A stretch of DNA of 64,000 nucleotides, from assembly GCA_902596065.1 (NCBI GenBank), contig CACJSL010000001.1:48782-112781 (forward strand), given 5' to 3'. Shown here in pieces: positions 7,892-53,607 of the stretch; the first letter of the stretch is position 1, and each line of letters opens with the position of its first letter. Under the pieces are notes generated by a model. It had not been told where the DNA came from. It ran no database searches and was given only the letters and a program-made list of their open reading frames with translations. This stretch comes from an uncultured Alphaproteobacteria bacterium. Lineage in GTDB: Bacteria; Pseudomonadota; Alphaproteobacteria; HIMB59; GCA-002718135. Made by a program: the position numbers and the translations under genes.

Positions 7892-9297
7892 TATATACTT
7901 CTCCAAATAGTACCCTCAGAAGTATCTTCAATTTCAACTCCTTCTTCTTTAAGTTTTTTTCTAATTTCATCTGCCATATCAAAATTTTTGTTGCGTCTAG
8001 CTTCATTACGATCTTTTATCAACCTTTCTATAGTATCTTGATTAATATTTTTTGATTGACCATAACCAAGCCAAGTATCTGGGTTTTCTTGGAGAATTCC
8101 AAATATTTTTCCTATCTCTAAAAGATTGAACTTAATTTTTTGTTTTGTTTTTACATCAGCATTATTAATACCATTAGTTAGCATATTGAGCTCAGCAATA
8201 ACTTTAGGTGTATTGAGGTCATCATATAGCCCATTTATAATTCTTTCTTCTATTTCATTTTTTTCCGCATAGGCATCAATCTTTTCTAGATCCTTTAGGG
8301 TCCTATACAATCTATCTAACATGGTACTGTTTTGCTTAATGATATCTCTTGTCCAATTAAGAGGCTGGCGATAGTGAGCTGATAGCAGAGTTAATCTTAG
8401 CACTTCGCCTTTATATTCTTTTACCAAGTCATGAACCAATTTAATATTACCAATAGATTTGGACATTTTTTCTCCCTCTACATTTACAAACCCATTGTGA
8501 AACCAATACTTTGAAAAGGATTTTAAATCATCATTACTTTTATGTGCTGCACATGTTTGCGCAATTTCGTTTTCGTGATGAGGAAAAATTAAATCAGCTC
8601 CTCCACTGTGTATATCAAATGGTAAGCCCAAAGTTTTTTCTGACATAGCGGAACATTCTAAATGCCATCCTGGCCTTCCCAGTCCCCACGGAGATTCCCA
8701 TCCCGGTAGAGGTGAAGGACTCGGTTTCCATAACACGAAGTCTGTAGGATCTTTTTTATATGGTGCAACTTCAACTCTGCTTCCAGTAATTTGTTCATCT
8801 CTGTTTCGGCCAGATAACATGCCATAATTTTTAAATGATGGAACATGAAATAAAACATGGCCATCCTTTTCATAAGCAAAATTATTTTTAATTAATTTTT
8901 CAATAAGATTAATCATTTCTTTAATATAATCAGTTGCTTTTGGTTGTATATCTGGTTGCTTCACACCTAGAATAGACATGTCTTCATTATAAATTTTAGT
9001 ATATTTTTCAGTTAATTCTTTTATAGAAATTTTATTTTCTTGAGATGCTGTAATTATCTTATCATCAATATCTGTGATATTAGAAACATAAGTAACTTTT
9101 GGATACAAAGTTTTCAAAAAGCGAATTAACAAATCATTTACCACTGCCATTCTAGCATTTCCAATATGAGCGTAATTATAAACTGTAGGTCCACATGCAT
9201 ATACTCTAACATTTAAGGGGTCTATTGGCTTAAACTCCTCTAAATTATTACCTAAGGTATTATGAATTTTAAGTGTTTTCATAAAATTAAAACTCAC
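7891..9297 (-). CDS. cysS: Cysteinyl-tRNA synthetase
   Basis: HIGNAR (HIGH) and KMSKS class I motifs, WHLEC zinc site. Confidence 0.95.
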   Translation of the reverse strand: MSFNFMKTLKIHNTLGNNLEEFKPIDPLNVRVYACGPTVYNYAHIGNARMAVVNDLLIRFLKTLYPKVTYVSNITDIDDKIITASQENKISIKELTEKYTKIYNEDMSILGVKQPDIQPKATDYIKEMINLIEKLIKNNFAYEKDGHVLFHVPSFKNYGMLSGRNRDEQITGSRVEVAPYKKDPTDFVLWKPSPSPLPGWESPWGLGRPGWHLECSAMSEKTLGLPFDIHSGGADLIFPHHENEIAQTCAAHKSNDDLKSFSKYWFHNGFVNVEGEKMSKSIGNIKLVHDLVKEYKGEVLRLTLLSAHYRQPLNWTRDIIKQNSTMLDRLYRTLKDLEKIDAYAEKNEIEERIINGLYDDLNTPKVIAELNMLTNGINNADVKTKQKIKFNLLEIGKIFGILQENPDTWLGYGQSKNINQDTIERLIKDRNEARRNKNFDMADEIRKKLKEEGVEIEDTSEGTIWRSI

Positions 9298-43969: not shown

Positions 43970-45211
43970 GTGACTGAAAATTTATTAATTAACAATAGAG
44001 AATATCCAAGTATATTTTCAAAGACAGCTATAGTTATTTGTCTTGATGGAAGCCAAAAAGAATATCTTGAAGAGGCATCAAAATCAAATCTGACACCTAA
44101 TCTTGACTCATTAATTGCAAGTGGTCAAAATTTATTAGTTCACAGTGCTATACCTAGCTTCACAAATCCAAATAATATTTCAATTGTGACAGGGCAGCCT
44201 AGTTCTGTTCACGGAATATGTGGTAACTTTTTTTACACTCCTGAAACGGGTGAAGAAGTAATGATGAATGATCCAAAATATATGCGTGCTCCAACAATTT
44301 TTGAAAAATTTTATAATTCTGGCTCAAAAATCGCTCTTGTTACTGCAAAAGATAAACTTAGAACCCTTTTGGGAAATGGTTTAAGTTTTGATAATAATCG
44401 AGCAATATGTTTTTCTGCAGAAAAATCTGATCAGGCAACAAAAGAACTTAATGGTATAGAAAATGTTAATGACTGGTTAGGTATGCCGGTGCCAGAAGTG
44501 TACTCCGAAGGTCTTTCTGAGTTTGTCATGGCCGCTGGAGTAAAACTACTAAAGGAATTTAAACCAGACATTATGTATTTATCTACGACTGACTATATTC
44601 AACACAAGTATGCACCTGGAAATGAAATAGCAAATAAGTTCTATGCAATGTTTGATAAATATATTGGCCTTTTAAATAAAGAAGACGTATCAATGATAGT
44701 AACAGCTGATCATGGAATGAAATCTAAATCAAAAGAAGACGGTTCACCTAACGCGATATTTTTACAAGATTATCTTGATAAAAAATTTGAACCGAACTTA
44801 ACAAAAGTCATCTTACCAATCACAGATCCGTATGTAGTTCATCATGGATCATTAGGTTCATTTGCTACAATTTATCTTGAAGATAAAACTAAAGTCAACG
44901 ATGTTATTGAATCAATTAAAGCAATTAAAGATATAGAAGTAGTCTTAACTAAAGACGAAGGTTGCTCAACATATAATCTTCCTCCAGATAGAATGGGAGA
45001 TATAATATGCATGTCTTCTGAATTTATGACAATTGGATCCTCTTTAGATAAACATAATCTTTCTGGATTAAATGAGCCTTTGCGTTCCCATGGTGGTTTA
45101 CATGAGCGAGAAGTACCTTTTATTTCAAATTTAAAAATACAAAATTTAAATAATGAAAAACAGTTATATAATTATGATGCATTCTATTATGCAATCAATG
45201 GAGCTTTATGA
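43970..45211 (+). CDS. phnA: Phosphonoacetate hydrolase (alkaline phosphatase superfamily)
   Basis: [35 protein letters not shown] (Thr nucleophile region), [44 protein letters not shown]. These closely match what I recall of Pseudomonas fluorescens PhnA. GTG start. Confidence 0.9.
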
Positions 45212-46650
45212 TGGAAAAGAAAATTATTAATGAAGCTATGCGCATTGCTGGCAAAAAAGTAAATTTTGAAAAAACAATTGATGTTGAATATCCATTTACA
45301 GGAGAAGTAATTGGTACAGTTCCTGCAGGAAATGCTGAGCATGCAAAACAAGCTCTTGAAATTGCTGCAAACTATCAACCTAAGTTGACACGATATGAAA
45401 GACAAAAAATACTTCAAACCGCAGCTGAGGTACTTGTAAAAAGAAAAGAAGAGATTTCTGACATCATTACCTTAGAACTTGGAATTTCAAAACAAGACTC
45501 ATTGTATGAAGTAGGCAGAGCATTTGATGTTTTTTCTTTAACCGCACAACTTTGTATTCATGATGACGGAGAAATTTTTTCTTGTGATTTAACTCCACAC
45601 GGAAAAGCGAGAAAAATATTTACAATAAGAGAACCATTAACAGCAATTTCGGCAATTACACCATTTAATCACCCTTTAAATATGGTGGCACATAAAATTG
45701 CACCTTCAATTGCAACGAATAATTGTACTGTTTGTAAGCAGACTGAGTTAACTCCATTAACAGCAATGGTTCTTGCTGATGTTTTGTATGAAGCTGGTTT
45801 GCCGCCAGAAATGTTTTCTGTTGTTACAGGATGGCCGCAAGATATCGGCTCTGAAATGATAAAGAATCCAAATATTGATCTTATTACTTTTACTGGAAGT
45901 GTTGGTGTTGGAAAACTAATTGCTGAACAAGCAGGATACAAAAGAACTGTCCTTGAACTTGGTGGAAATGATCCTTTAATAGTTTTAAATGATTTAGATC
46001 CAGATGATTTAAAGAAAGCAGTTGAATTAGCAGTTACTGGAGCAACAAAAAATTCAGGACAACGATGTACAGCTGTTAAAAGAATACTTTTGCAAGAAAA
46101 AATTGCTGATCAGTTTGTTGAAATGGCTTTGGAAAGAGCAAAAAAAATTAAATTTGGTGATCCAATGAGTATGGAAACTGACTTAGGCACTGTTGTTAAT
46201 GCTCAAGCAGCGGAATTATTTGATAAAAGAGTTTCAATGGCAGAGGCAGATGGTGCAAAAATCTTATATCACCCTGGAAGAAAAGGTGCGTTATTGCCTC
46301 CTATAGTAATTGATAATGTTGATCCAAAAAGTGAACTTGTTCTTGAAGAAACATTTGGCCCAGTTATCCCTATTATTAGGGTTCCCAATGATGATGAATC
46401 GGTAATCAAGATTTCAAACTCAACTGCTTTTGGATTATCTTCAGGTGTATGCACCAATAATTTTATGAGAGCTAAAAAATATATTCAAGGTCTTAATGTT
46501 GGAACTGTAAATATCTGGGAAGTACCTGGTTACAGAATTGAAATGTCCCCTTTTGGAGGAATTAAAGATTCTGGCTTAGGCTACAAAGAAGGCGTAATAG
46601 AAGCGATGAAGAGCTTTACTAATGTAAAAACATTCTCACTTCCTTGGTAG
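45208..46650 (+). CDS. phnY: Phosphonoacetaldehyde dehydrogenase (ALDH superfamily)
   Basis: ELGGNDP catalytic Glu, GQRCTAVKR catalytic Cys; ATGA overlap with phnA. Confidence 0.8.
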
Positions 46651-48157: not shown

Positions 48158-49237
48158 ATGCCTCTAACTACAACTACAATAGGTGCTTATCCAAAACCTA
48201 AACAAACTCCAATTCAAGATTGGTTTTTAGGCACTAAATCTGAAGAAGAAAGAAAAGCTTCAAAAGGATTATTATCAAACTGGTCACCCGGTGCATATGA
48301 AAAAGCATTAGAGTCTGCTGGAGAAGAAGCGGAGAAATTATTTTTAGAAGCAATTAAAGAAGTTATTACTGATCAAGTAAATTCAGGCATTGATGTTCCA
48401 ACTGATGGAGAAGTACGAAGAGAAAGTTATGTTTTATATCAATGTCGTTTTTTAAATGGTGTAAGCTTTAAGGAAGTAACACATAGGTCAGTTAGACAAG
48501 GCGCGTTTGAAGCAGATCTTCCAACAATAGTAGCGCCTATTTCAAGTAAAGAAATTCGCTTGCATTTAGATTGGAAAAGCGCGCAACAATTTACAAAAAA
48601 TCCTGTAAAAATTACTCTACCAGGACCTATGACAATTACAGATTCAATTGCTAATAACTATTATGATGACATGAAAAAACTAGGTTTTGATCTAGCACTT
48701 GCTTTAAACAAAGAAGTGAAAGCGCTTGTAGATGCTGGGTGTAAATACATTCAAATTGATGAACCTGTATTTGCAAGAAAACCTGAAGAAGCAAATTCTT
48801 ATGGTATGGAAAATTTAGAAAGAATGATGCACGGGATTCCAAAAGAGGTACAAAGAGTGTGCCATATTTGTTGCGGCTATCCAAACTCTCTTGACTCCGA
48901 GGGTTACAAAAAAGCAGACTTAGATGCTTATGATAGGATTGCTACTTTAGTAGATGATTCTACGATTGATGAAGTGTCATTAGAAGACTCACATAGACAC
49001 AATGATTTAAATCTTTTAGAAAAATTTACTAAAACAAAAGTTATTTTTGGATTTATTGATATTGCCAAAAGCAGAATGGAGTCAGTAGAAGAAGTAAGAA
49101 GTCGTATGAAAGACTCTTTAGAACATATTGACGAACATAGATTGATAGCTGCTCCAGATTGTGGTTTAGGTTTCTTTACAAGAGAACAAGCTATTGAAAA
49201 AATGTCAATATTATCTAAGGCTGCAAAATCAATTTAG
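48158..49237 (+). CDS. Single-domain cobalamin-independent methionine synthase (MetE C-terminal)-like Zn enzyme
   Basis: TDGEVRRE, IQIDEP, H236-I-C238, E276 (SLEDSHR), C335 (APDCGLGF); SD AGGGAGA. Confidence 0.8.
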   Translation: MPLTTTTIGAYPKPKQTPIQDWFLGTKSEEERKASKGLLSNWSPGAYEKALESAGEEAEKLFLEAIKEVITDQVNSGIDVPTDGEVRRESYVLYQCRFLNGVSFKEVTHRSVRQGAFEADLPTIVAPISSKEIRLHLDWKSAQQFTKNPVKITLPGPMTITDSIANNYYDDMKKLGFDLALALNKEVKALVDAGCKYIQIDEPVFARKPEEANSYGMENLERMMHGIPKEVQRVCHICCGYPNSLDSEGYKKADLDAYDRIATLVDDSTIDEVSLEDSHRHNDLNLLEKFTKTKVIFGFIDIAKSRMESVEEVRSRMKDSLEHIDEHRLIAAPDCGLGFFTREQAIEKMSILSKAAKSI

Positions 49238-49241
49238 TAGA

Positions 49242-50354
49242 ATGTGGAATTATTATAATCCTGTTGATGTTGTTTTTGGTGAAAATAAATTTTCAGAGAT
49301 ACACAAAATATTAGAAAATAAAAAATACGTCGTTGTTACCCATCCTGAAGAAATTTTTAAAAAATATACTGATCAATTAAATACATCATCTAATCCTCCC
49401 CTTATGGTTATGACAGAAGTACAACCTAATCCAGATTATTTAGATATTCTTACTCTATTAAAAAATTTTGCTTCTATAGCAAAAGAAGTTGATCATGTAG
49501 TTGCTATAGGAGGTGGATCTGTTACCGATACAGCAAAAGCTTTAGCAGCATTTAAAGGCAATGAAAATCTTTTAACAGATTTTGTTCGCAATAAAAAAAC
49601 TCCTTATGTGGATGACCCTATAAGTATTATTGCTGTGCCTACAACTTCTGGAACATCAAGTGAATTAACTTGTTGGGCTACGATTTGGGATAAAGAAAAA
49701 AATGGAAAGCTATCTTTAGCACACAAGAGCCTTTATCCTTTAAAGGCAATTATAGATCCAGTTATCATGTTAGATAAACCCAAAGGATTAACAATTTCAA
49801 CAGGTCTTGATGCCCTTTCTCATTCAATGGAAAGTATTTGGAATATTAATGCAAACCCAGTTTCTGCTATGCATGGAATAGTGGGCTCTCAATTAATTAT
49901 TGAAAACCTTCCTTTATTAGCTAATGATTTAAAAAACATCACATTAAGAAGTAATGTTGCTCGCGCTTGCGTTCATGCGGGTTTAGCTTTTTCTAATACT
50001 AAGACAGCCATTGCACATAATATTTCTTATCCCATTACTCTTAATTATGGTATTCAACATGGAATTGCGTGTTCTTTTAGCTTGCCTATGATTTTAAGAA
50101 GTATGCTTGATATTAATGATGAAGCTGAAAATCGTTTAAAAATGATTTTTAATGATGATTTAATTAGTTCAGCAACAAAACTTGAATCAATTTTACGACA
50201 ATTAAATATTCCTCTTAATCTTAATGAATTAAAAATCAATAAAGACGAGTGGAATAAAATTGTTGGTGATGCATTTATGGGCGAAAGAGGTAAAAATTTT
50301 TTAGGTAATAAAAATGCTTTTGATAAAGCAGTTGATGAATCAAATTTTTTTTAA
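49242..50354 (+). CDS. Group III iron-containing alcohol dehydrogenase (phosphonoacetaldehyde reductase-like)
   Basis: GGGSVTDTAKA, DALSHSMES, AHNISYP motifs. ATG at 49242 lies 5 nt after the upstream stop; the track start at 49194 is TTG inside the upstream gene. Confidence 0.82.
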   Translation: MWNYYNPVDVVFGENKFSEIHKILENKKYVVVTHPEEIFKKYTDQLNTSSNPPLMVMTEVQPNPDYLDILTLLKNFASIAKEVDHVVAIGGGSVTDTAKALAAFKGNENLLTDFVRNKKTPYVDDPISIIAVPTTSGTSSELTCWATIWDKEKNGKLSLAHKSLYPLKAIIDPVIMLDKPKGLTISTGLDALSHSMESIWNINANPVSAMHGIVGSQLIIENLPLLANDLKNITLRSNVARACVHAGLAFSNTKTAIAHNISYPITLNYGIQHGIACSFSLPMILRSMLDINDEAENRLKMIFNDDLISSATKLESILRQLNIPLNLNELKINKDEWNKIVGDAFMGERGKNFLGNKNAFDKAVDESNFF

Positions 50355-50355
50355 A

Positions 50356-51168
50356 TTAAAATTTTTTAGTTGTCTCAAACCAATTGATATTATCTTTTAA
50401 AAAATCTTCAGTATGGACTACTAGTGAGTTTTTATTAATTAATATTACATTATAATTTGGATCAGTATTGGCCGTTCCCAATCTATAGTTTTTTGAAAAA
50501 TTGGGCACCAATGGAGACCAAGTACTTCTCGGCGCACTAAAAGGTATGTTTAAATAATTTCCTGATACTGTAATATGCTGATGACCAAAAAAAATATGTT
50601 GAATAATTTTTTTAAATTTAATTAATATATCTTTAAACTCATCTCCTTGTTGTAAACCAATATAATCACTAGTGGGCTCTCCTAGGGGTAAAGGATTATG
50701 ATGCATAAAAAGATAAACTTGTTTATTATTATCTGAAGCATTTTCTAGAGTATTTATAAGCCAACTTTGTCTGTTGTTGCAAAAATGCCCTTGATGGGTA
50801 TTTGATAAATTTGTATCTAAAAAAATAAAACGTTTATCTTCAATGTCTTCAAAGTATTGAATAAAACCATTTTCATCTAAAGGTATTTTTGTAAATATTT
50901 GTTTAAACTGTTCTCTATCATCATGATTGCCCATAAGCAATTTTGGAAACAAATGTTTTGGTATTTTGGAATTTAATAATATTTCATTTAATTTATTATA
51001 AGATTCACTATCCCCGTCATGCGTTAAATCTCCTGATATAACAAATAGCTTTGAGTCTAAATGATTGTTGCAAATATGTTGAAGTGCTAGTGAAAATCTC
51101 TCTTTAGCATCATGTTCAAAAAGTTTATCTGGAGAAATATGAGGATCTGATAAGTGGATTATTTTCAT
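50356..51168 (-). CDS. Class III metallophosphodiesterase (GpdQ/CpdA family)
   Basis: HLSDPH, SGDLTHDG, GNHDD, FMHHNPLPLG, FGHQH. These five metallophosphoesterase blocks are spaced as in GpdQ. Confidence 0.85.
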   Translation of the reverse strand: MKIIHLSDPHISPDKLFEHDAKERFSLALQHICNNHLDSKLFVISGDLTHDGDSESYNKLNEILLNSKIPKHLFPKLLMGNHDDREQFKQIFTKIPLDENGFIQYFEDIEDKRFIFLDTNLSNTHQGHFCNNRQSWLINTLENASDNNKQVYLFMHHNPLPLGEPTSDYIGLQQGDEFKDILIKFKKIIQHIFFGHQHITVSGNYLNIPFSAPRSTWSPLVPNFSKNYRLGTANTDPNYNVILINKNSLVVHTEDFLKDNINWFETTKKF

Positions 51169-51194
51169 ATTTAAAAAATATTTTAAATGAATAA

Positions 51195-51824
51195 TTAAAG
51201 TTTTGTTTTAAAAAAAAGATACTTATTAAATTCTTTTTTTAAATCGATGCTAACACGGGCATGTACTTTCCCTTGTTTGCCCATAAAAGAACTTTTCTTT
51301 TGAACAGGGAAAACACCCTCATGCCAAATATTGGGATGAATATATAAACCTTTTGATCCATCAAAATAAAATGCCTTAAAATCTTCTGCTTGAATATCAT
51401 CGCCAGGTAACGCAAGAGGTGAAATAAATGGACCTCTTTCAGAGGGAAAAAATAACTGCCCTCCATCTGGGTGGTAATTAACATGCCATATATAAATCTC
51501 TTCTGGCTCACTATATTCTGTATTGTTTTCAATATTTTCTGGAGGGGCAGAATAGCCTAAAATATATTTTCCATCTATTTCATACTCACTATTATGTTGC
51601 ACAGCATTATTTTGCCCATAAAGAGTTGAGCCTTCCCACCAAGTATCAAACGCACCTTTGGTATAGCCCGCTTCATTACCTGTTCCTTCATCAATTTCTC
51701 GCCAACCTTGTTTTGGCCAAGTTACAATTTCAACATCACTGTTTTCAAATGAGTCTATTAAATAACCATATCCTTTAAGAGTTTCATTTGTAGCTTTGAC
51801 TAAGGGGATTTCAATGGCCTGCAT
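51195..51824 (-). CDS. Ureidoglycolate lyase (AllA) family-like cupin, extended form
   Basis: N-terminal LKGYGYLID, central YHPDGGQLFFP and C-terminal GLYIHPNIWHEGVFP align with blocks I recall from AllA (FSAYGDVIE, RHPLGTQAFIP, VNYHRNVWHHPLF). Confidence 0.55.
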   Translation of the reverse strand: MQAIEIPLVKATNETLKGYGYLIDSFENSDVEIVTWPKQGWREIDEGTGNEAGYTKGAFDTWWEGSTLYGQNNAVQHNSEYEIDGKYILGYSAPPENIENNTEYSEPEEIYIWHVNYHPDGGQLFFPSERGPFISPLALPGDDIQAEDFKAFYFDGSKGLYIHPNIWHEGVFPVQKKSSFMGKQGKVHARVSIDLKKEFNKYLFFKTKL

Positions 51825-51835
51825 AAATATTACTT

Positions 51836-52936
51836 TTAATTAATTTTAATTTGTAATTCATTTACAACTTCTTTTATGGCCTTAATGGTATCATGCATAT
51901 CATTGTCATCTAAATTTCCAATACATCCAATACGAAAAGTATCAGCAACAGTAAGCTTGCCTGGATAAATCAAAAAATCTTTATTACTCAAAGCATCATA
52001 AAATTCTTCAAAATTAAAATTTGAATTTTGAGGCTGCATAAATGTTATAATTATTGGCGCTTGTAATTCATTTGACAGTAATTGTTTAAAACCTATTTCT
52101 TTCATACCATCACAAATTATTTTGCAATTATTTGAATACCTTTTATGCCTTCCTTCAACCCCCCCTTCTTTTGAATGTTCATTTATAGCTTGTTGAAAGG
52201 CAGCTAAAACATGTGTGGGAGGAGTAAAACGCCACTGTTTATTTTTTTCCATCGCCTGCCACTGGTCATATAGATCTAAACTTAAAGAATGTGCATTTCC
52301 TTTTGCTTTTTCGATAATATTATTTTTAACTAAAATAAAGCCTACTCCTGGAACTCCTTCTAAACATTTATTGGAAGAAGCAGCAACAGCATCAAATGCA
52401 ATTGTTTTACTACTAAGAGGAAGAGCGCCAAAAGCACTCATAGCATCAATAAATAATGATAAATTTTTTTTTGCTACTAAGTCAGATATTTTTTGAATAG
52501 GATTTAATATTCCTGAGGTTGTTTCGCAGTAAACAGCAAACACATGAGTTAAATCAGTATTTGAATCTATGATGTTTTCAATTTCATCTAAATCATGTTG
52601 TTCATGTTCCGCAACTTCATAAGCAATACATTCTCTACCAACATAGTCACACATTTTTTTCATACGGTGACCATATGCTCCATTAATTAATATTAATATT
52701 TTTGCATCTTTAGATGTGAGAGAGCCAACCATTGATTCTACTGCAAATGTTCCGCTACCTTGCATTGGAACACATTGGTAATTATTTTCACCATCAATAA
52801 GTTTTACAAGAGACTCACGAATAGAATGGTTCAGATCAATAAATTTTTGATCTCGCGAACCCCAATCATGAAGCATGGCTTCTTTGGTTGTCATGGAGGT
52901 AGTAAGTGGTCCAGGTGTAAGAAGTTTTTTATCCAT
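51836..52936 (-). CDS. phnW: 2-aminoethylphosphonate:pyruvate aminotransferase
   Basis: LLTPGPLTTS N-terminus, class V aminotransferase fold, PLP Lys in SSNKCLEGVPGVGF. Confidence 0.9.
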   Translation of the reverse strand: MDKKLLTPGPLTTSMTTKEAMLHDWGSRDQKFIDLNHSIRESLVKLIDGENNYQCVPMQGSGTFAVESMVGSLTSKDAKILILINGAYGHRMKKMCDYVGRECIAYEVAEHEQHDLDEIENIIDSNTDLTHVFAVYCETTSGILNPIQKISDLVAKKNLSLFIDAMSAFGALPLSSKTIAFDAVAASSNKCLEGVPGVGFILVKNNIIEKAKGNAHSLSLDLYDQWQAMEKNKQWRFTPPTHVLAAFQQAINEHSKEGGVEGRHKRYSNNCKIICDGMKEIGFKQLLSNELQAPIIITFMQPQNSNFNFEEFYDALSNKDFLIYPGKLTVADTFRIGCIGNLDDNDMHDTIKAIKEVVNELQIKIN

Positions 52937-53034
52937 ATTCTTAATTGAGTTAACTATTTAATTCTTAATTAGCTCACTAGCAATTAAATAAAAAATTGAT
53001 TTGCAATTTTTCTTGAAAGTTGTATTTTTTCTAA

Positions 53035-53607
53035 ATGGAAAATATTGTAGATCAACTTCTAAATCTTTTAGTTACAAAGGGGGGAGATATACAATATGGA
53101 AATGAAGATGTTACTCAATTAGAGCATGCCTTACAGTGCGCAGAATTAGCTGAACAACACAATTTACCAGGCCCAACAATAGCAGCTGCTTTATTACATG
53201 ATATTGGCCATCTTTTATATGAAGACAAGGATCCAATTCATGAAGGGAAAGATGGACGTCATGAAAACTTAGGAGCTGATTATTTATCGCAATACTTTGA
53301 TACTGATGTGACACAGCCTATTCGAGCTCATGTAGATTCCAAAAGATATTTAGCAACAGTTGAAGAAGGTTATTATGATCTTCTCTCAGAGGCCTCCAAA
53401 CTTTCACTCGCTGTTCAGGGCGGTCCATTTACCAAAGAGGAGGCAAAAAAATTTATAGATAAACCATTTATGAAGGAAGCTGTAGAAATGAGGCGTTTCG
53501 ATGATATGGCAAAAATTTTAAATAAAAAAACCCCTGATATAAATTATTTTAGACCATATGTAGAAAAAGCACAAAATTCATTTAATTTAAAAAACATTAA
53601 GAATTAA
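53035..53607 (+). CDS. phnZ: PhnZ-type HD-domain di-iron oxygenase (phosphonate-degradation-associated HD protein)
   Basis: LEHALQC, AALLHDIGH, RHENLGADYL, RAHVDSKRYL, RRFDDMAK give the H/HD/H/H/D ligand pattern of the PhnZ/MIOX-like family. Confidence 0.75.
   Translation: MENIVDQLLNLLVTKGGDIQYGNEDVTQLEHALQCAELAEQHNLPGPTIAAALLHDIGHLLYEDKDPIHEGKDGRHENLGADYLSQYFDTDVTQPIRAHVDSKRYLATVEEGYYDLLSEASKLSLAVQGGPFTKEEAKKFIDKPFMKEAVEMRRFDDMAKILNKKTPDINYFRPYVEKAQNSFNLKNIKN

What the first reader, a model, noticed from the sequence alone, without database searches (positions are those of the whole stretch)
51195..51824. AllA-like (ureidoglycolate lyase family) cupin co-transcribed with phnW
This 209-aa protein lies 11 nt downstream of phnW on the same strand, followed by the GpdQ-like gene. 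Its N-terminal, central (YHPDGGQLFFP) and C-terminal (IHPNIWHEGVFP) blocks match what I recall of AllA. It is about 50 aa longer than AllA and carries an insertion rich in acidic residues.

Ureide catabolism makes no sense in this context, since no other allantoin genes are present. AllA chemistry cleaves a C-N bond next to a hydroxylated carbon. A related reaction on a hydroxy- or N-substituted aminophosphonate is conceivable, and so is a hydroxylase role supplying PhnZ. The central block reads H-P-D where I recall H-P-L in E. coli AllA, which could contribute to a metal site.
Basis: partly seen in the sequence, partly recalled or inferred. Interest (0 to 1): 0.6.

Follow-up and report, generated by a model that had tools for sequence, protein, structure and literature searches.

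The report
AllA-like cupin in phosphonate operons
A small metal-binding enzyme that databases label "ureidoglycolate lyase" is really a separate, unstudied family that travels with genes for breaking down natural aminophosphonates in abundant ocean bacteria and several unrelated groups, so it is probably a missing helper enzyme of marine phosphorus recycling whose reaction is still unknown.

Summary
ORF 51195-51824 (-) encodes 209 aa. It starts 11 nt after phnW and ends 26 nt before a GpdQ/SpdA-like esterase. It is a divergent AllA-fold protein: PF04115 at 39 bits, all AllA equivalog models far below cut-off, and Foldseek top hits are AllA structures.

It is not a ureidoglycolate lyase by context.
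- In its own family of streamlined marine Alphaproteobacteria it is gained and lost with phnW (96 both, 16 neither, 4 contig-edge cases).
- Elsewhere the same clade sits directly beside PhnX (soil bacteria), beside PbfA (a Phycisphaeraceae genome with no PhnW), behind a Stc2/GbcA/CntA-type Rieske oxygenase, and as an unreported third gene overlapping tmpB in a tmpA-tmpB operon.
- Among 301 Alphaproteobacteria it occurs in 10/20 genomes with both PhnW and a PhnZ/TmpB-type oxygenase, 1/36 with PhnW only, 2/33 with PhnZ only and 0/212 with neither.

Best reading (about 0.4): a metal-dependent, redox-neutral lyase acting on 1-hydroxy-2-amino(alkyl)ethylphosphonates or on their aldehyde, 1-hydroxy-phosphonoacetaldehyde. 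The aldehyde is a published dead-end product of PhnW.

The "hydroxylase for PhnZ" idea is weakened, because TmpA-type hydroxylases coexist with the protein, once in the same operon. No paper describing this role was found. The reaction is untested.

The parts
51195..51824 (-). AllA-fold cupin ('X'), 209 aa: the finding itself
   Evidence: ORF. PF04115 at 39.1 bits over residues 112-181. AllA equivalogs at most 32 bits against cut-offs of 160-315. AF2 pLDDT 88.6 and Foldseek top hits AllA.
51456..51479 (-). Motif N116-Y-H118-P-D120-G-G-Q123 (cupin motif-1 position; presumed metal and substrate ligands)
   Evidence: Invariant in 41 diverse clade members. Aligns with AllA E-R-H-P-L-G-T-Q.
51321..51338 (-). 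H163-P-N-I-W167-H168 (cupin motif-2 position; W167 and H168 invariant)
   Evidence: Aligns with AllA H-R-N-V-W-H.
51699..51719 (-). Clade-specific N-terminal motif W36-P37-x-x-G-W41-R42 (invariant Arg; candidate anion binder)
   Evidence: W36, P37 and R42 are invariant and W41 is at least 90% conserved in 41 sequences. The segment lies outside the part that aligns with AllA.
51261..51275 (-). Q184-G-K/R-V-H188 motif (Q184, G185, V187, H188 invariant)
51836..52936 (-). phnW, 2-aminoethylphosphonate:pyruvate transaminase, 11 nt upstream of X
   Evidence: NF010006 at 523.6 bits (cut-off 296) and TIGR02326 at 475 bits (cut-off 401). Directly upstream of X in all 20 SAR11-like loci that have flank.
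50356..51168 (-). GpdQ/SpdA-like metallophosphoesterase, 26 nt downstream of X; a variable third gene
   Evidence: PF00149; NF050112 at 183 bits, below cut-off. Present after X in about half of the related loci.
53035..53607 (+). PhnZ/TmpB-type HD-domain oxygenase, divergent from phnW
   Evidence: TIGR03276 at 197 bits (cut-off 215), with TmpB and PhnZ1 models next. The same arrangement occurs in at least 11 related loci.
43970..46650 (+). phnA (phosphonoacetate hydrolase) and phnY (phosphonoacetaldehyde dehydrogenase): the sink for phosphonoacetaldehyde in this island
   Evidence: TIGR02335 at 467 bits and TIGR03250 at 788 bits, both above cut-off.
49194..50354 (+). Fe-alcohol dehydrogenase of the phosphonate-associated PhpC/PsrA type (context only)
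   Evidence: TIGR03405 at 377 bits, below the 424 cut-off. The family role is described in PMC13576164.

Best explanation
Shown:
- The ORF encodes a divergent member of the AllA (ureidoglycolate lyase, PF04115) cupin fold.
- It keeps a metal-site-like signature (N116-x-H118-x-D120-GG-Q123 ... W167-H168) and adds a conserved N-terminal WPxxGWR element.
- It forms a distinct clade that is tied by gene order and by phylogenetic profile to aminophosphonate catabolism, not to ureide catabolism.

Inferred:
- It is a metal-dependent, redox-neutral lyase. Its substrate is an alpha-hydroxyphosphonate of the 1-hydroxy-2-amino(alkyl)ethylphosphonate family (R-HAEP, or the hydroxylated trimethyl-AEP made by TmpA), or the aldehyde derived from these, 1-hydroxy-phosphonoacetaldehyde.
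- The metal would chelate the 1-hydroxy-phosphonate in the way AllA's Ni2+ is thought to hold the alpha-hydroxy-carboxylate of ureidoglycolate. The enzyme would then carry out an elimination that feeds compounds PhnW/PhnX cannot finish into phosphate release.

Two versions of the reaction:
- (i) Amine elimination giving phosphonoacetaldehyde (PAA) for PhnY-PhnA or PhnX. This would be a PLP-independent counterpart of PbfA that tolerates N-methylation. About 0.22.
- (ii) C-P cleavage of 1-hydroxy-PAA to glycolaldehyde plus phosphate. About 0.15.

I put about 0.85 on 'accessory enzyme of aminophosphonate catabolism, not an ureidoglycolate lyase'.
For: Homology and fold. The same 26 residues are invariant in 41 members drawn from all context types.

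Own family (116 species genomes):
- X is in 100 and PhnW in 96.
- All 16 genomes without X also lack PhnW.
- The 4 genomes with X but no PhnW all have X at or near a contig edge.
- PhnW lies directly upstream in 20/20 loci.

Independent contexts:
- PhnX (TIGR01422 above cut-off) directly upstream of X in soil loci L044, L061, L098 and L115.
- PhnW-X-PhnX in a Pelagibacteraceae MAG, L022.
- X-PbfA (NF049939 at 581 bits against 525) inside a full island (FAD oxidoreductase, PhnX, PhnCDE) in a Phycisphaeraceae genome with no PhnW.
- A Stc2/GbcA/CntA-type Rieske oxygenase directly upstream of X in L077, L084 and L103. L077 also carries TmpB-like, MFS, FAD-oxidoreductase and PhnX genes.
- tmpA (814 bits to TmpA, PDB 6npb)-tmpB-X, with an ATGA overlap between tmpB and X.

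Profile in 301 Alphaproteobacteria:
- PhnW in 11/13 carriers against 45/288 non-carriers.
- PhnZ-like in 12/13 against 41/288.
- PhnA in 10/13 against 16/288. All three have p below 1e-6.
- X occurs in 10/20 genomes with both PhnW and PhnZ-like, 1/36 with PhnW only, 2/33 with PhnZ-like only and 0/212 with neither.
- 11/13 carriers have a PAA sink.

Tree: phosphonate contexts are scattered over both major clades.

Literature:
- AllA is a Ni2+-dependent lyase that expels urea from a carbinol carbon (PMC3793230).
- PhnW converts R-HAEP into a putative 1-hydroxy-PAA. PhnX cannot use it, and it only slowly decays to phosphate plus glycolaldehyde (PMC8154272).
Against: - No biochemical datum exists for any member, and the substrate is inferred from neighbours only.
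- I could not read model coordinates, so the pocket and metal geometry are unchecked.
- Most soil-clade loci and all cyanobacterial loci show no phosphonate neighbour.
- The five Okeania-type cyanobacterial genomes that are not fragmentary have PhnZ but no PhnW, PhnX or Ppd.
- Carriers G330 and G362 have no detected PAA sink and no PhnW.
- Version (i) needs chemistry without enzymatic precedent: non-PLP, non-radical amine elimination with transposition of the carbonyl.
- Version (ii) does not explain the tmpA-tmpB-X operon, because the TmpA product cannot be transaminated. It also does not explain the Phycisphaeraceae genome that lacks PhnW.
- PhnX is not enriched at genome level (1/13 against 25/288).
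Confidence: 0.4

Rival explanations
1. O2-dependent non-haem-iron cupin: a hydroxylase, or another oxygenase, that makes the 1-hydroxyphosphonate substrate for partnerless PhnZ-type oxygenases or for PbfA.
For: - An H118-x-D120 ... H168 pattern is invariant. It resembles the 2-His-1-carboxylate triad, whereas AllA has H-P-L.
- PhnZ-like genes co-occur in 12/13 alphaproteobacterial carriers and in 5 cyanobacterial genomes.
- The HD oxygenase has no adjacent hydroxylase in this island or in Okeania.
- X-PbfA in a genome without PhnW would give an AEP to HAEP to PAA route.
Against: - X is the third gene of an operon that already encodes TmpA.
- G158/G320, G362 and Njordibacter carry X and also have a TmpA/TauD-type hydroxylase beside their HD oxygenase.
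- The Phycisphaeraceae and Planctomycetota carriers have no PhnZ.
- The PhnW-X-PhnX and PhnX-X modules contain no consumer of a 1-hydroxy product.
- The nearest characterised relative is a lyase. The Asp can be read as a relocated copy of AllA's Glu (E-x-H becomes N-x-H-x-D), so no new carboxylate is gained.
- No 2-oxoglutarate-binding motif was identified.
Confidence: 0.1
2. Helper at the phosphonoacetaldehyde node. It would speed breakdown of tetrahedral C2 adducts of PAA (gem-diol hydrate, carbinolamine or imine left by PbfA, FAD amine oxidoreductases or Rieske oxygenases) to free aldehyde. That is the closest copy of AllA chemistry, and it parallels the role proposed for DUF4867 cupins.
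For: - The direct neighbours PhnW, PbfA and PhnX share only PAA.
- X lies between PhnW and PhnX in L022.
- FAD oxidoreductases (TIGR03364, TIGR03329) recur nearby.
- AllA cleaves a carbinolamide to aldehyde plus urea (PMC3793230).
- DUF4867 is a similarly enigmatic accessory cupin, suggested to open hemiketals (PMC11968277).
Against: - It does not explain tmpA-tmpB-X or the strong skew towards genomes that also have PhnZ-type oxygenases (1/36 PhnW-only genomes).
- Simple carbinolamines and hydrates break down fast without an enzyme (general chemistry).
- The PhnW-PhnX pathway works without such a helper in well-studied bacteria.
Confidence: 0.1
3. Racemase or epimerase that turns S-configured 1-hydroxy-aminophosphonates into the R form needed by PhnZ, TmpB and PbfA. 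This would be a cofactor-free analogue of the NAD-dependent PbfF.
For: - An R-specific consumer (PhnZ, TmpB or PbfA) is present in 20 of the 24 carrier genomes examined.
- Adjacency to tmpB and to pbfA mirrors the pbfF-pbfA pairing (PMC12366243).
- Cupin-fold epimerases appear among the weak fold matches.
Against: - It predicts no dependence on PhnW or PhnA, yet PhnZ-only genomes rarely carry X (2/33).
- The PhnX-X and PhnW-X-PhnX modules lack an R-specific consumer.
- Deprotonating C1 of a hydroxyphosphonate without redox help is chemically hard.
Confidence: 0.08
4. Ordinary ureidoglycolate lyase, or an enzyme unrelated to phosphonates, that merely sits in a tightly packed genome.
For: - The Pfam match exceeds the gathering score, and several sources annotate relatives as ureidoglycolate lyase.
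- Many soil and cyanobacterial members have unrelated neighbours.
Against: - All eight AllA NCBIfam models that matched score 21-32 bits, against cut-offs of 160-315.
- No allantoin genes were seen in any annotated neighbourhood.
- There is strict co-loss with phnW.
- Five different phosphonate enzymes are direct partners in distant lineages.
- X occurs in 0/212 genomes lacking both PhnW and PhnZ-like genes.
Confidence: 0.05

Closest known systems
AllA / DAL3 (S)-ureidoglycolate urea-lyase, EC 4.3.2.3 (Pfam PF04115; PDB 1xsq, 1xsr, 1yqc, 2bdr)
   Same: - Same cupin fold (Foldseek E 2e-9 to 1e-7).
- The alignable core of about 70 residues carries the H...Q...WH positions.
- A divalent metal requirement is likely, since AllA needs Ni2+.
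   Different: - Only about 15-17% identity over the structure, and far below every AllA equivalog cut-off.
- About 40-50 residues longer, with a conserved WPxxGWR/GTGNEGG N-terminal elaboration.
- E-x-H-P-L is replaced by N-x-H-P-D.
- Never seen with allantoin genes here; always seen in genomes with PhnW and/or PhnZ-type genes.
[quoted passage not shown] 2021, PMC8154272)
   Same: - A recurrent accessory gene of AEP-degradation clusters that widens their substrate range.
- My favoured reaction, version (i), would give the same product, phosphonoacetaldehyde, from a 1-hydroxy-aminophosphonate.
   Different: - Unrelated fold and cofactor.
- X sits next to PbfA in one genome, so the two are not simple substitutes.
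- X is linked to PhnZ/TmpB-containing clusters, where the 2021 survey found PbfA to be absent.
DUF4867 cupins SftX/SqvB of sulfoquinovose pathways (PDB 9gyy; PMC11968277)
   Same: - An AllA-related metal-binding cupin.
- It recurs in catabolic clusters whose main steps are all already assigned.
- Its function is still enigmatic.
   Different: - Different family (Foldseek E about 1e-3).
- 2-His-2-Glu metal site.
- Sugar-sulfonate context rather than phosphonates.
PhnY*/TmpA Fe(II)/2-oxoglutarate hydroxylases that partner PhnZ/TmpB
   Same: Found beside HD-domain C-P oxygenases; has an H-x-D...H pattern.
   Different: - No sequence relationship.
- X coexists with TmpA in one operon rather than replacing it.

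Membership tests
AllA ureidoglycolate lyase (PF04115 / NCBIfam PRK03606, PRK13395) | Match to the Pfam family model above the gathering score | tested here: met
   39.1 bits against 23, but only profile positions 70-139 of 162 are matched.
AllA ureidoglycolate lyase (PF04115 / NCBIfam PRK03606, PRK13395) | Score above the curated cut-off of an AllA equivalog or subfamily model | tested here: not met
   Best score is 31.9 bits, against cut-offs of 160-315.
AllA ureidoglycolate lyase (PF04115 / NCBIfam PRK03606, PRK13395) | AllA-type cupin fold | tested here: met
   AF2 pLDDT 88.6. Foldseek ranks 1-5 are 2bdr, 1xsr, 1xsq (two chains) and 1yqc, with TM 0.63-0.70 on the target.
AllA ureidoglycolate lyase (PF04115 / NCBIfam PRK03606, PRK13395) | Conserved E-x-H-P-L-G-x-Q ... 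W-H core residues | tested here: inconclusive
   H118, Q123, W167 and H168 are retained. E is replaced by N116 and L by D120, both invariant in the clade. Which residues bind Ni2+ in AllA I know only by the cupin-motif analogy.
AllA ureidoglycolate lyase (PF04115 / NCBIfam PRK03606, PRK13395) | Genomic association with allantoin/purine catabolism | tested here: not met
   Neighbours are PhnW, PhnZ, PhnA/Y, PhnX, PbfA and TmpA/B. No allantoin gene was seen in the annotated neighbourhoods, but there was no genome-wide search for them.
AllA ureidoglycolate lyase (PF04115 / NCBIfam PRK03606, PRK13395) | Urea release from (S)-ureidoglycolate | not testable with these tools
   Needs an enzyme assay.
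Accessory 'phosphonate breakdown factor' of AEP-type clusters (operational sense of Zangelmi et al.) | Recurrent physical association with phnW, phnX or phnA-Y clusters in unrelated taxa | tested here: met
   Genome-level enrichment p below 1e-6.
Accessory 'phosphonate breakdown factor' of AEP-type clusters (operational sense of Zangelmi et al.) | Demonstrated conversion of a phosphonate into a pathway intermediate | not testable with these tools
No paper on it was found.
Hydroxylase partner of PhnZ/TmpB (functional replacement of PhnY*/TmpA) | 2-His-1-carboxylate-like motif | tested here: met
   H118-x-D120 ... H168 is invariant. Geometry is unchecked because the model coordinates were not readable.
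Hydroxylase partner of PhnZ/TmpB (functional replacement of PhnY*/TmpA) | Complementary distribution with PhnY*/TmpA (present where they are absent) | tested here: not met
   The tmpA-tmpB-X operon. TmpA-type genes lie beside the HD gene in G158, G362 and Njordibacter, all of which carry X.

The most novel reading that the evidence does not exclude
X catalyses an O2-independent cleavage or rearrangement of the C-P bond of 1-hydroxy-phosphonoacetaldehyde. This aldehyde is what PhnW, or a CntA-like Rieske oxygenase, would make from 1-hydroxy-aminophosphonates.

The reaction could be a direct hydrolysis to glycolaldehyde plus phosphate through a metal-bound enediolate. Alternatively, it could be a phosphonate-to-phosphate (phospha-Brook-type) shift giving glycolaldehyde phosphate, which the operon's metallophosphoesterase would then hydrolyse.

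PhnW-X(-esterase) would then be a new hydrolytic phosphonate pathway. It would be a fourth 'phosphonatase' type beside PhnX, PhnA and PalA, and it would operate in very abundant ocean bacteria.
Probability: 0.15. Interest if true: 0.9.

Novelty: new variant of a known kind. Interest (0 to 1): 0.72.

Why it matters
- Aminophosphonates are a major pool of dissolved organic phosphorus in the sea, and phnW-type pathways are the dominant route for using them.
- This protein family has more than 5,000 90%-identity clusters, mostly from marine metagenomes.
- It is present in essentially every phnW-carrying genome of a streamlined SAR11-like family.
- It is also the overlooked third gene of the tmpA-tmpB operon, which the 2023 review still calls a two-gene operon.
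- Its reaction is unknown, and public annotation ("ureidoglycolate lyase") is misleading.
- Identifying the reaction would fill a gap in how 1-hydroxylated and N-methylated aminophosphonates are mineralised, and it could reveal new C-N or C-P bond chemistry on a cupin scaffold.
- The candidate substrates are few and synthetically available, so the question can be tested directly.

Tried and rejected
- Promoter and terminator scan of 50200-53200: fewer promoter-like sites than in shuffles, and no terminator between phnW and X, so it was uninformative.
- Pocket inspection: model coordinates are not exposed to the Python box, so metal geometry could not be checked.
- Phosphonopyruvate decarboxylase as a PAA source in cyanobacterial carriers: absent.
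- PhnX as a genome-level correlate: not enriched (1/13 against 25/288).
- 'X replaces PhnY*/TmpA': rejected as a general rule by tmpA-tmpB-X and three other lineages.
- I first read G213 as an orphan PhnZ-X pair. That came from my crude ORF caller choosing a spurious opposite-strand ORF. Re-reading showed tmpA upstream.
- G186 was taken as a canonical AllA outgroup, but it turned out to be a truncated clade member, so the tree is unrooted.
- De novo clustering of neighbours in 80 soil-metagenome loci found no dominant partner; PhnX and Rieske partners are minorities.
- Literature searches for ureidoglycolate/cupin together with phosphonate, PhnZ, PbfE and DUF4867 found no description of this role.
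Full report
**1. Observation**

- It starts 11 nt after the stop of phnW (51836-52936; NF010006 at 524 bits, cut-off 296).
- It ends 26 nt before a GpdQ/SpdA-like metallophosphoesterase (50356-51168).
- A PhnZ/TmpB-type HD oxygenase lies divergently upstream of phnW.
- phnA, phnY and a PhpC/PsrA-type Fe-alcohol dehydrogenase lie within 8 kb.

The AllA resemblance is real but partial.
- PF04115 scores 39.1 bits (gathering 23) over residues 112-181 only.
- All eight AllA NCBIfam models that matched score 21-32 bits, against cut-offs of 160-315.
- PDB AllA chains match at E about 6e-7 with the single sequence and 5e-13 with a clade profile.
- The alignment confirms NYHPDGGQ against AllA ERHPLGTQ, and IHPNIWHE against YHRNVWHH.
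- An AlphaFold2 model built on 40 homologues (pLDDT 88.6, pTM 0.87) finds the four AllA entries as its five best PDB matches. Next come CA_C3497, DUF4867 and generic cupins.
- The extra 40-50 residues lie in the N-terminal half. Part is a conserved WPxxGWR...GTGNEGG segment. Part is a variable Glu-rich stretch, together with a 10-residue insert restricted to the SAR11-like and Njordibacter sequences.

**2. How big and how coherent the family is**

- A word-indexed search found more than 5,000 90%-identity clusters, mostly marine.
- An exhaustive search of 50%-identity representatives found 367 at E ≤ 1e-10 and only 703 at E ≤ 1e-3. The clade is therefore well separated from canonical AllA.
- A second search, seeded with a planctomycete member, revealed a broad clade of about 225 aa proteins in soil and freshwater bacteria.
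- In an alignment of 41 members drawn from every context type, 26 functionally plausible positions are invariant: W36, P37, R42, G49, G53, F59, N72, N116, Y117, H118, P119, D120, Q123, F125, P127, G141, D142, D143, W167, H168, Q184, G185, V187, H188, E198, F199.
- The same active-site signature in all contexts argues for one chemistry across the clade.
- Relative to AllA, the carboxylate two residues before the His (E-x-H) is replaced by Asn, and a new invariant Asp appears two residues after it (H-x-D). Gln123 and His168 keep their places.
- AllA itself is Ni2+-dependent (PMC3793230).

**3. Link to phnW in the window's own lineage**

- Among the 116 species genomes of the window's family (streamlined 1.0-1.6 Mb marine Alphaproteobacteria; record titles Pelagibacterales / MarineAlpha5), the gene is in 100 and phnW in 96.
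- All 16 genomes lacking the gene also lack phnW.
- The four with the gene but no phnW all have it at or near a contig end.
- In every pair I checked the two genes are on the same contig, 11-35 nt apart. One exception is G096, where a phnW fragment lies on another contig's edge.
- In 20 of 20 fetched loci with flank, phnW is the gene directly upstream. The GpdQ-like gene follows in only about half.
- The pair therefore behaves as one unit of gain and loss.
- The own genome has a single PF04115 match.

**4. Independent contexts elsewhere**

This is the key evidence, because synteny within one family could be inherited by descent.

- (a) Soil-metagenome relatives. PhnX (phosphonoacetaldehyde hydrolase, TIGR01422 above cut-off) is the gene directly upstream in L044, L061, L098 and L115. 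In L115 the two genes overlap. In L061 a TIGR03364 FAD oxidoreductase precedes PhnX.
- (b) A Pelagibacteraceae MAG has PhnW-X-PhnX-phn_DUF6.
- (c) A Phycisphaeraceae MAG has X followed 68 nt later by PbfA (NF049939 at 581 bits, cut-off 525). The pair sits within an island holding a TIGR03364 FAD oxidoreductase, PhnX, an AraC regulator, PhnCDE and a PhnX-like hydrolase. That genome has no PhnW and no PhnZ.
- (d) Three soil loci place a Rieske oxygenase directly upstream of X. Its best solved relatives are the quaternary-amine enzymes Stc2 and CntA. In L077 the divergent operon carries an MFS transporter, a TmpB-like HD oxygenase, an FAD oxidoreductase and PhnX.
- (e) In genome G213 the order is tmpA-tmpB-X.
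  - tmpA scores 814 bits, E 1.5e-244, to the crystallised TmpA of Leisingera caerulea.
  - The tmpB stop and the X start overlap (ATGA).
  - G330 has TmpB-like followed by X on a short contig.
  - The 2023 review still describes tmpAB as a two-gene operon (PMC10574752).
- (f) Other members have unrelated neighbours. These include most soil loci, Okeania cyanobacteria, and Njordibacter, whose copy is nested inside the SAR11-like clade and is probably a transfer.
- On a maximum-likelihood tree, the phosphonate contexts are scattered over both major clades.

**5. Phylogenetic profile**

In an even sample of 301 Alphaproteobacteria (254 genera), 13 genomes from 11 families carry the clade.

| Partner gene | Carriers (of 13) | Non-carriers (of 288) |
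|---|---|---|
| PhnW | 11 | 45 |
| PhnZ/TmpB-type HD oxygenase | 12 | 41 |
| PhnA | 10 | 16 |
| PhnX | 1 | 25 |

Fisher p is 2e-7 for PhnW, 3e-9 for PhnZ-type, 9e-10 for PhnA and 0.7 for PhnX. The first three remain ≤ 5e-6 without the window's own family.

Split by partner combination, the gene occurs as follows:

| Genome class | Genomes carrying X |
|---|---|
| PhnW and PhnZ-type | 10 of 20 |
| PhnW only | 1 of 36 |
| PhnZ-type only | 2 of 33 |
| Neither | 0 of 212 |

- Eleven of 13 carriers have a phosphonoacetaldehyde sink (PhnA or PhnX).
- In the nine non-family carriers that have PhnW, the two genes are not adjacent, so this signal is independent of gene order.
- Outside the class:
  - Njordibacter has PhnW plus TmpA-TmpB.
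  - The two planctomycete-phylum genomes have PhnX.
  - Five cyanobacterial genomes have an above-cut-off PhnZ but no PhnW, PhnX or Ppd. In Okeania the PhnZ gene sits beside phnM of a C-P lyase cluster.

**6. What it most likely does**

The protein needs two things in the cell. One is a sign that 1-hydroxylated aminophosphonates are met or made (PhnZ, TmpA/B, PbfA). The other is the phosphonoacetaldehyde branch (PhnW with PhnA/Y or PhnX). Its direct partners either use (R)-1-hydroxy-2-amino(alkyl)ethylphosphonates or make or consume phosphonoacetaldehyde.

AllA's substrate is an alpha-hydroxy-carboxylate with a leaving group. The phosphonate counterpart is an alpha-hydroxy-phosphonate.

I therefore favour a metal-dependent, redox-neutral lyase acting on this compound family (about 0.4 overall). 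There are two versions.

- Version (i), about 0.22. It eliminates the amine, including trimethylamine, which PLP chemistry cannot handle. The product is phosphonoacetaldehyde for PhnY-PhnA or PhnX.
  - It fits tmpA-tmpB-X, PhnX-X, FAD-oxidoreductase-PhnX-X, PhnW-X-PhnX, X-PbfA and Rieske-X.
  - It also fits the 'both pathways' skew.
  - It requires chemistry with no enzymatic precedent.
- Version (ii), about 0.15. It rests on a published orphan.
  - Zangelmi et al. showed that PhnW slowly transaminates R-HAEP to a putative 1-hydroxy-phosphonoacetaldehyde. PhnX cannot use that product, and it decays only slowly to phosphate plus glycolaldehyde (PMC8154272).
  - An enzyme for that step is exactly what one would expect to find encoded behind phnW.
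  - A CntA-type Rieske oxygenase acting on hydroxylated trimethyl-AEP, a carnitine analogue, would give the same aldehyde.
  - It does not explain tmpA-tmpB-X or the PhnW-less Phycisphaeraceae.

All of this is inference from context and analogy. Nothing about the reaction has been shown.

**7. Rivals**

- Hydroxylase supplying PhnZ (about 0.1). The H-x-D...H pattern and the partnerless HD oxygenases in this lineage and in Okeania speak for it. Coexistence with TmpA-type hydroxylases speaks against it. Coexistence was seen in the same operon in G213, and beside the HD gene in G158/G320, G362 and Njordibacter. Carriers without any PhnZ also speak against it.
- Helper that frees phosphonoacetaldehyde from hydrates or carbinolamines (about 0.1). 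This is the closest copy of AllA chemistry and parallels the proposal for DUF4867 (PMC11968277). It does not explain the tmpAB link or the 1/36 frequency in PhnW-only genomes.
- HAEP racemase (about 0.08).
- True ureidoglycolate lyase, or no link to phosphonates (about 0.05).
- The remainder is 'some other phosphonate-related reaction'.

**8. Comparison with what is known, and novelty**

- By fold it is an AllA relative. By every family-membership test other than the permissive Pfam threshold and the fold, it is not an AllA.
- By behaviour it resembles the 'phosphonate breakdown factors' (PbfA-G) that were found by genomic context. No paper in the library connects PF04115, cupins or ureidoglycolate lyase with phosphonate clusters.
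- Earlier AI notes of this scan on other genomes reached the same general view and flagged the tmpAB link. I treated them as leads and re-derived the tmpA-tmpB-X operon myself.
- I rate it a new variant of a known kind: a known fold, with a new and probably new-reaction subfamily.

**9. Limits**

- The class-level profile has only 13 positives.
- My ORF calling in GC-rich loci is crude and misled me once.
- The own genome is 68% complete.

Noticed in passing
L003:5618-6724 (-) and 13 other SAR11-like loci; own genome C6:1573-2661: A conserved protein of about 368 aa with no NCBIfam match lies on the opposite strand just downstream of X or the esterase in 14 related loci. In the window's genome its 66%-identical homologue sits on another contig rather than in the island.
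   Followed up: partly
own genome C31:2492-3571 and C2:79031-80116 (outside the window): Two full-length TmpA/gamma-butyrobetaine-hydroxylase-family 2OG dioxygenase homologues (34% and 28% identity to Leisingera-type TmpA) exist far from the island. The island's 'partnerless' PhnZ-type oxygenase may therefore have a distant hydroxylase.
   Followed up: no
L016 and L023 (Candidatus Njordibacter, Gammaproteobacteria), 7992-8633: The Njordibacter copy is 73-75% identical to the window protein. It shares the lineage-specific insert and nests inside the SAR11-like clade in the tree. This looks like a recent alpha-to-gamma transfer, and the gene now sits away from phnW between a polysaccharide-lyase-like gene and Sel1-repeat genes.
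   Followed up: partly
L008:5412-6821 and 7 other SAR11-like loci: A TIGR03329 'aminophosphonate oxidoreductase' (PbfD-like, 602 bits, just below cut-off) lies directly upstream of phnW in eight related loci. It is absent from the window and from the rest of its 68%-complete genome.
   Followed up: partly
P0352 (342 aa): One relative is a fusion of DUF952 (PF06108) with the AllA-like domain.
   Followed up: no
L140 (G186:C1:1330300-1331900): A 159-aa open frame matches only the C-terminal third of the clade profile and groups with the tmpB-linked members. It is probably a truncated remnant, in a genome without PhnW, PhnZ or PhnA.
   Followed up: no
L134:7170-8222 (G324): In the one PhnW-only carrier, a membrane fatty-acid-hydroxylase-family (OlsE-like) gene lies 36 nt upstream of X on the same strand, and a class-III aminotransferase lies 1.7 kb downstream.
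   Followed up: no
L137:5511-7664 (Okeania sp.): An above-cut-off PhnZ gene follows phnM of a C-P lyase cluster and has no 2OG hydroxylase nearby. This is another partnerless arrangement, in a cyanobacterium that also carries X elsewhere.
   Followed up: partly
window 51239-51532 (-): A 97-aa TTG ORF lies wholly inside the X gene in another frame. It is almost certainly spurious.
   Followed up: no
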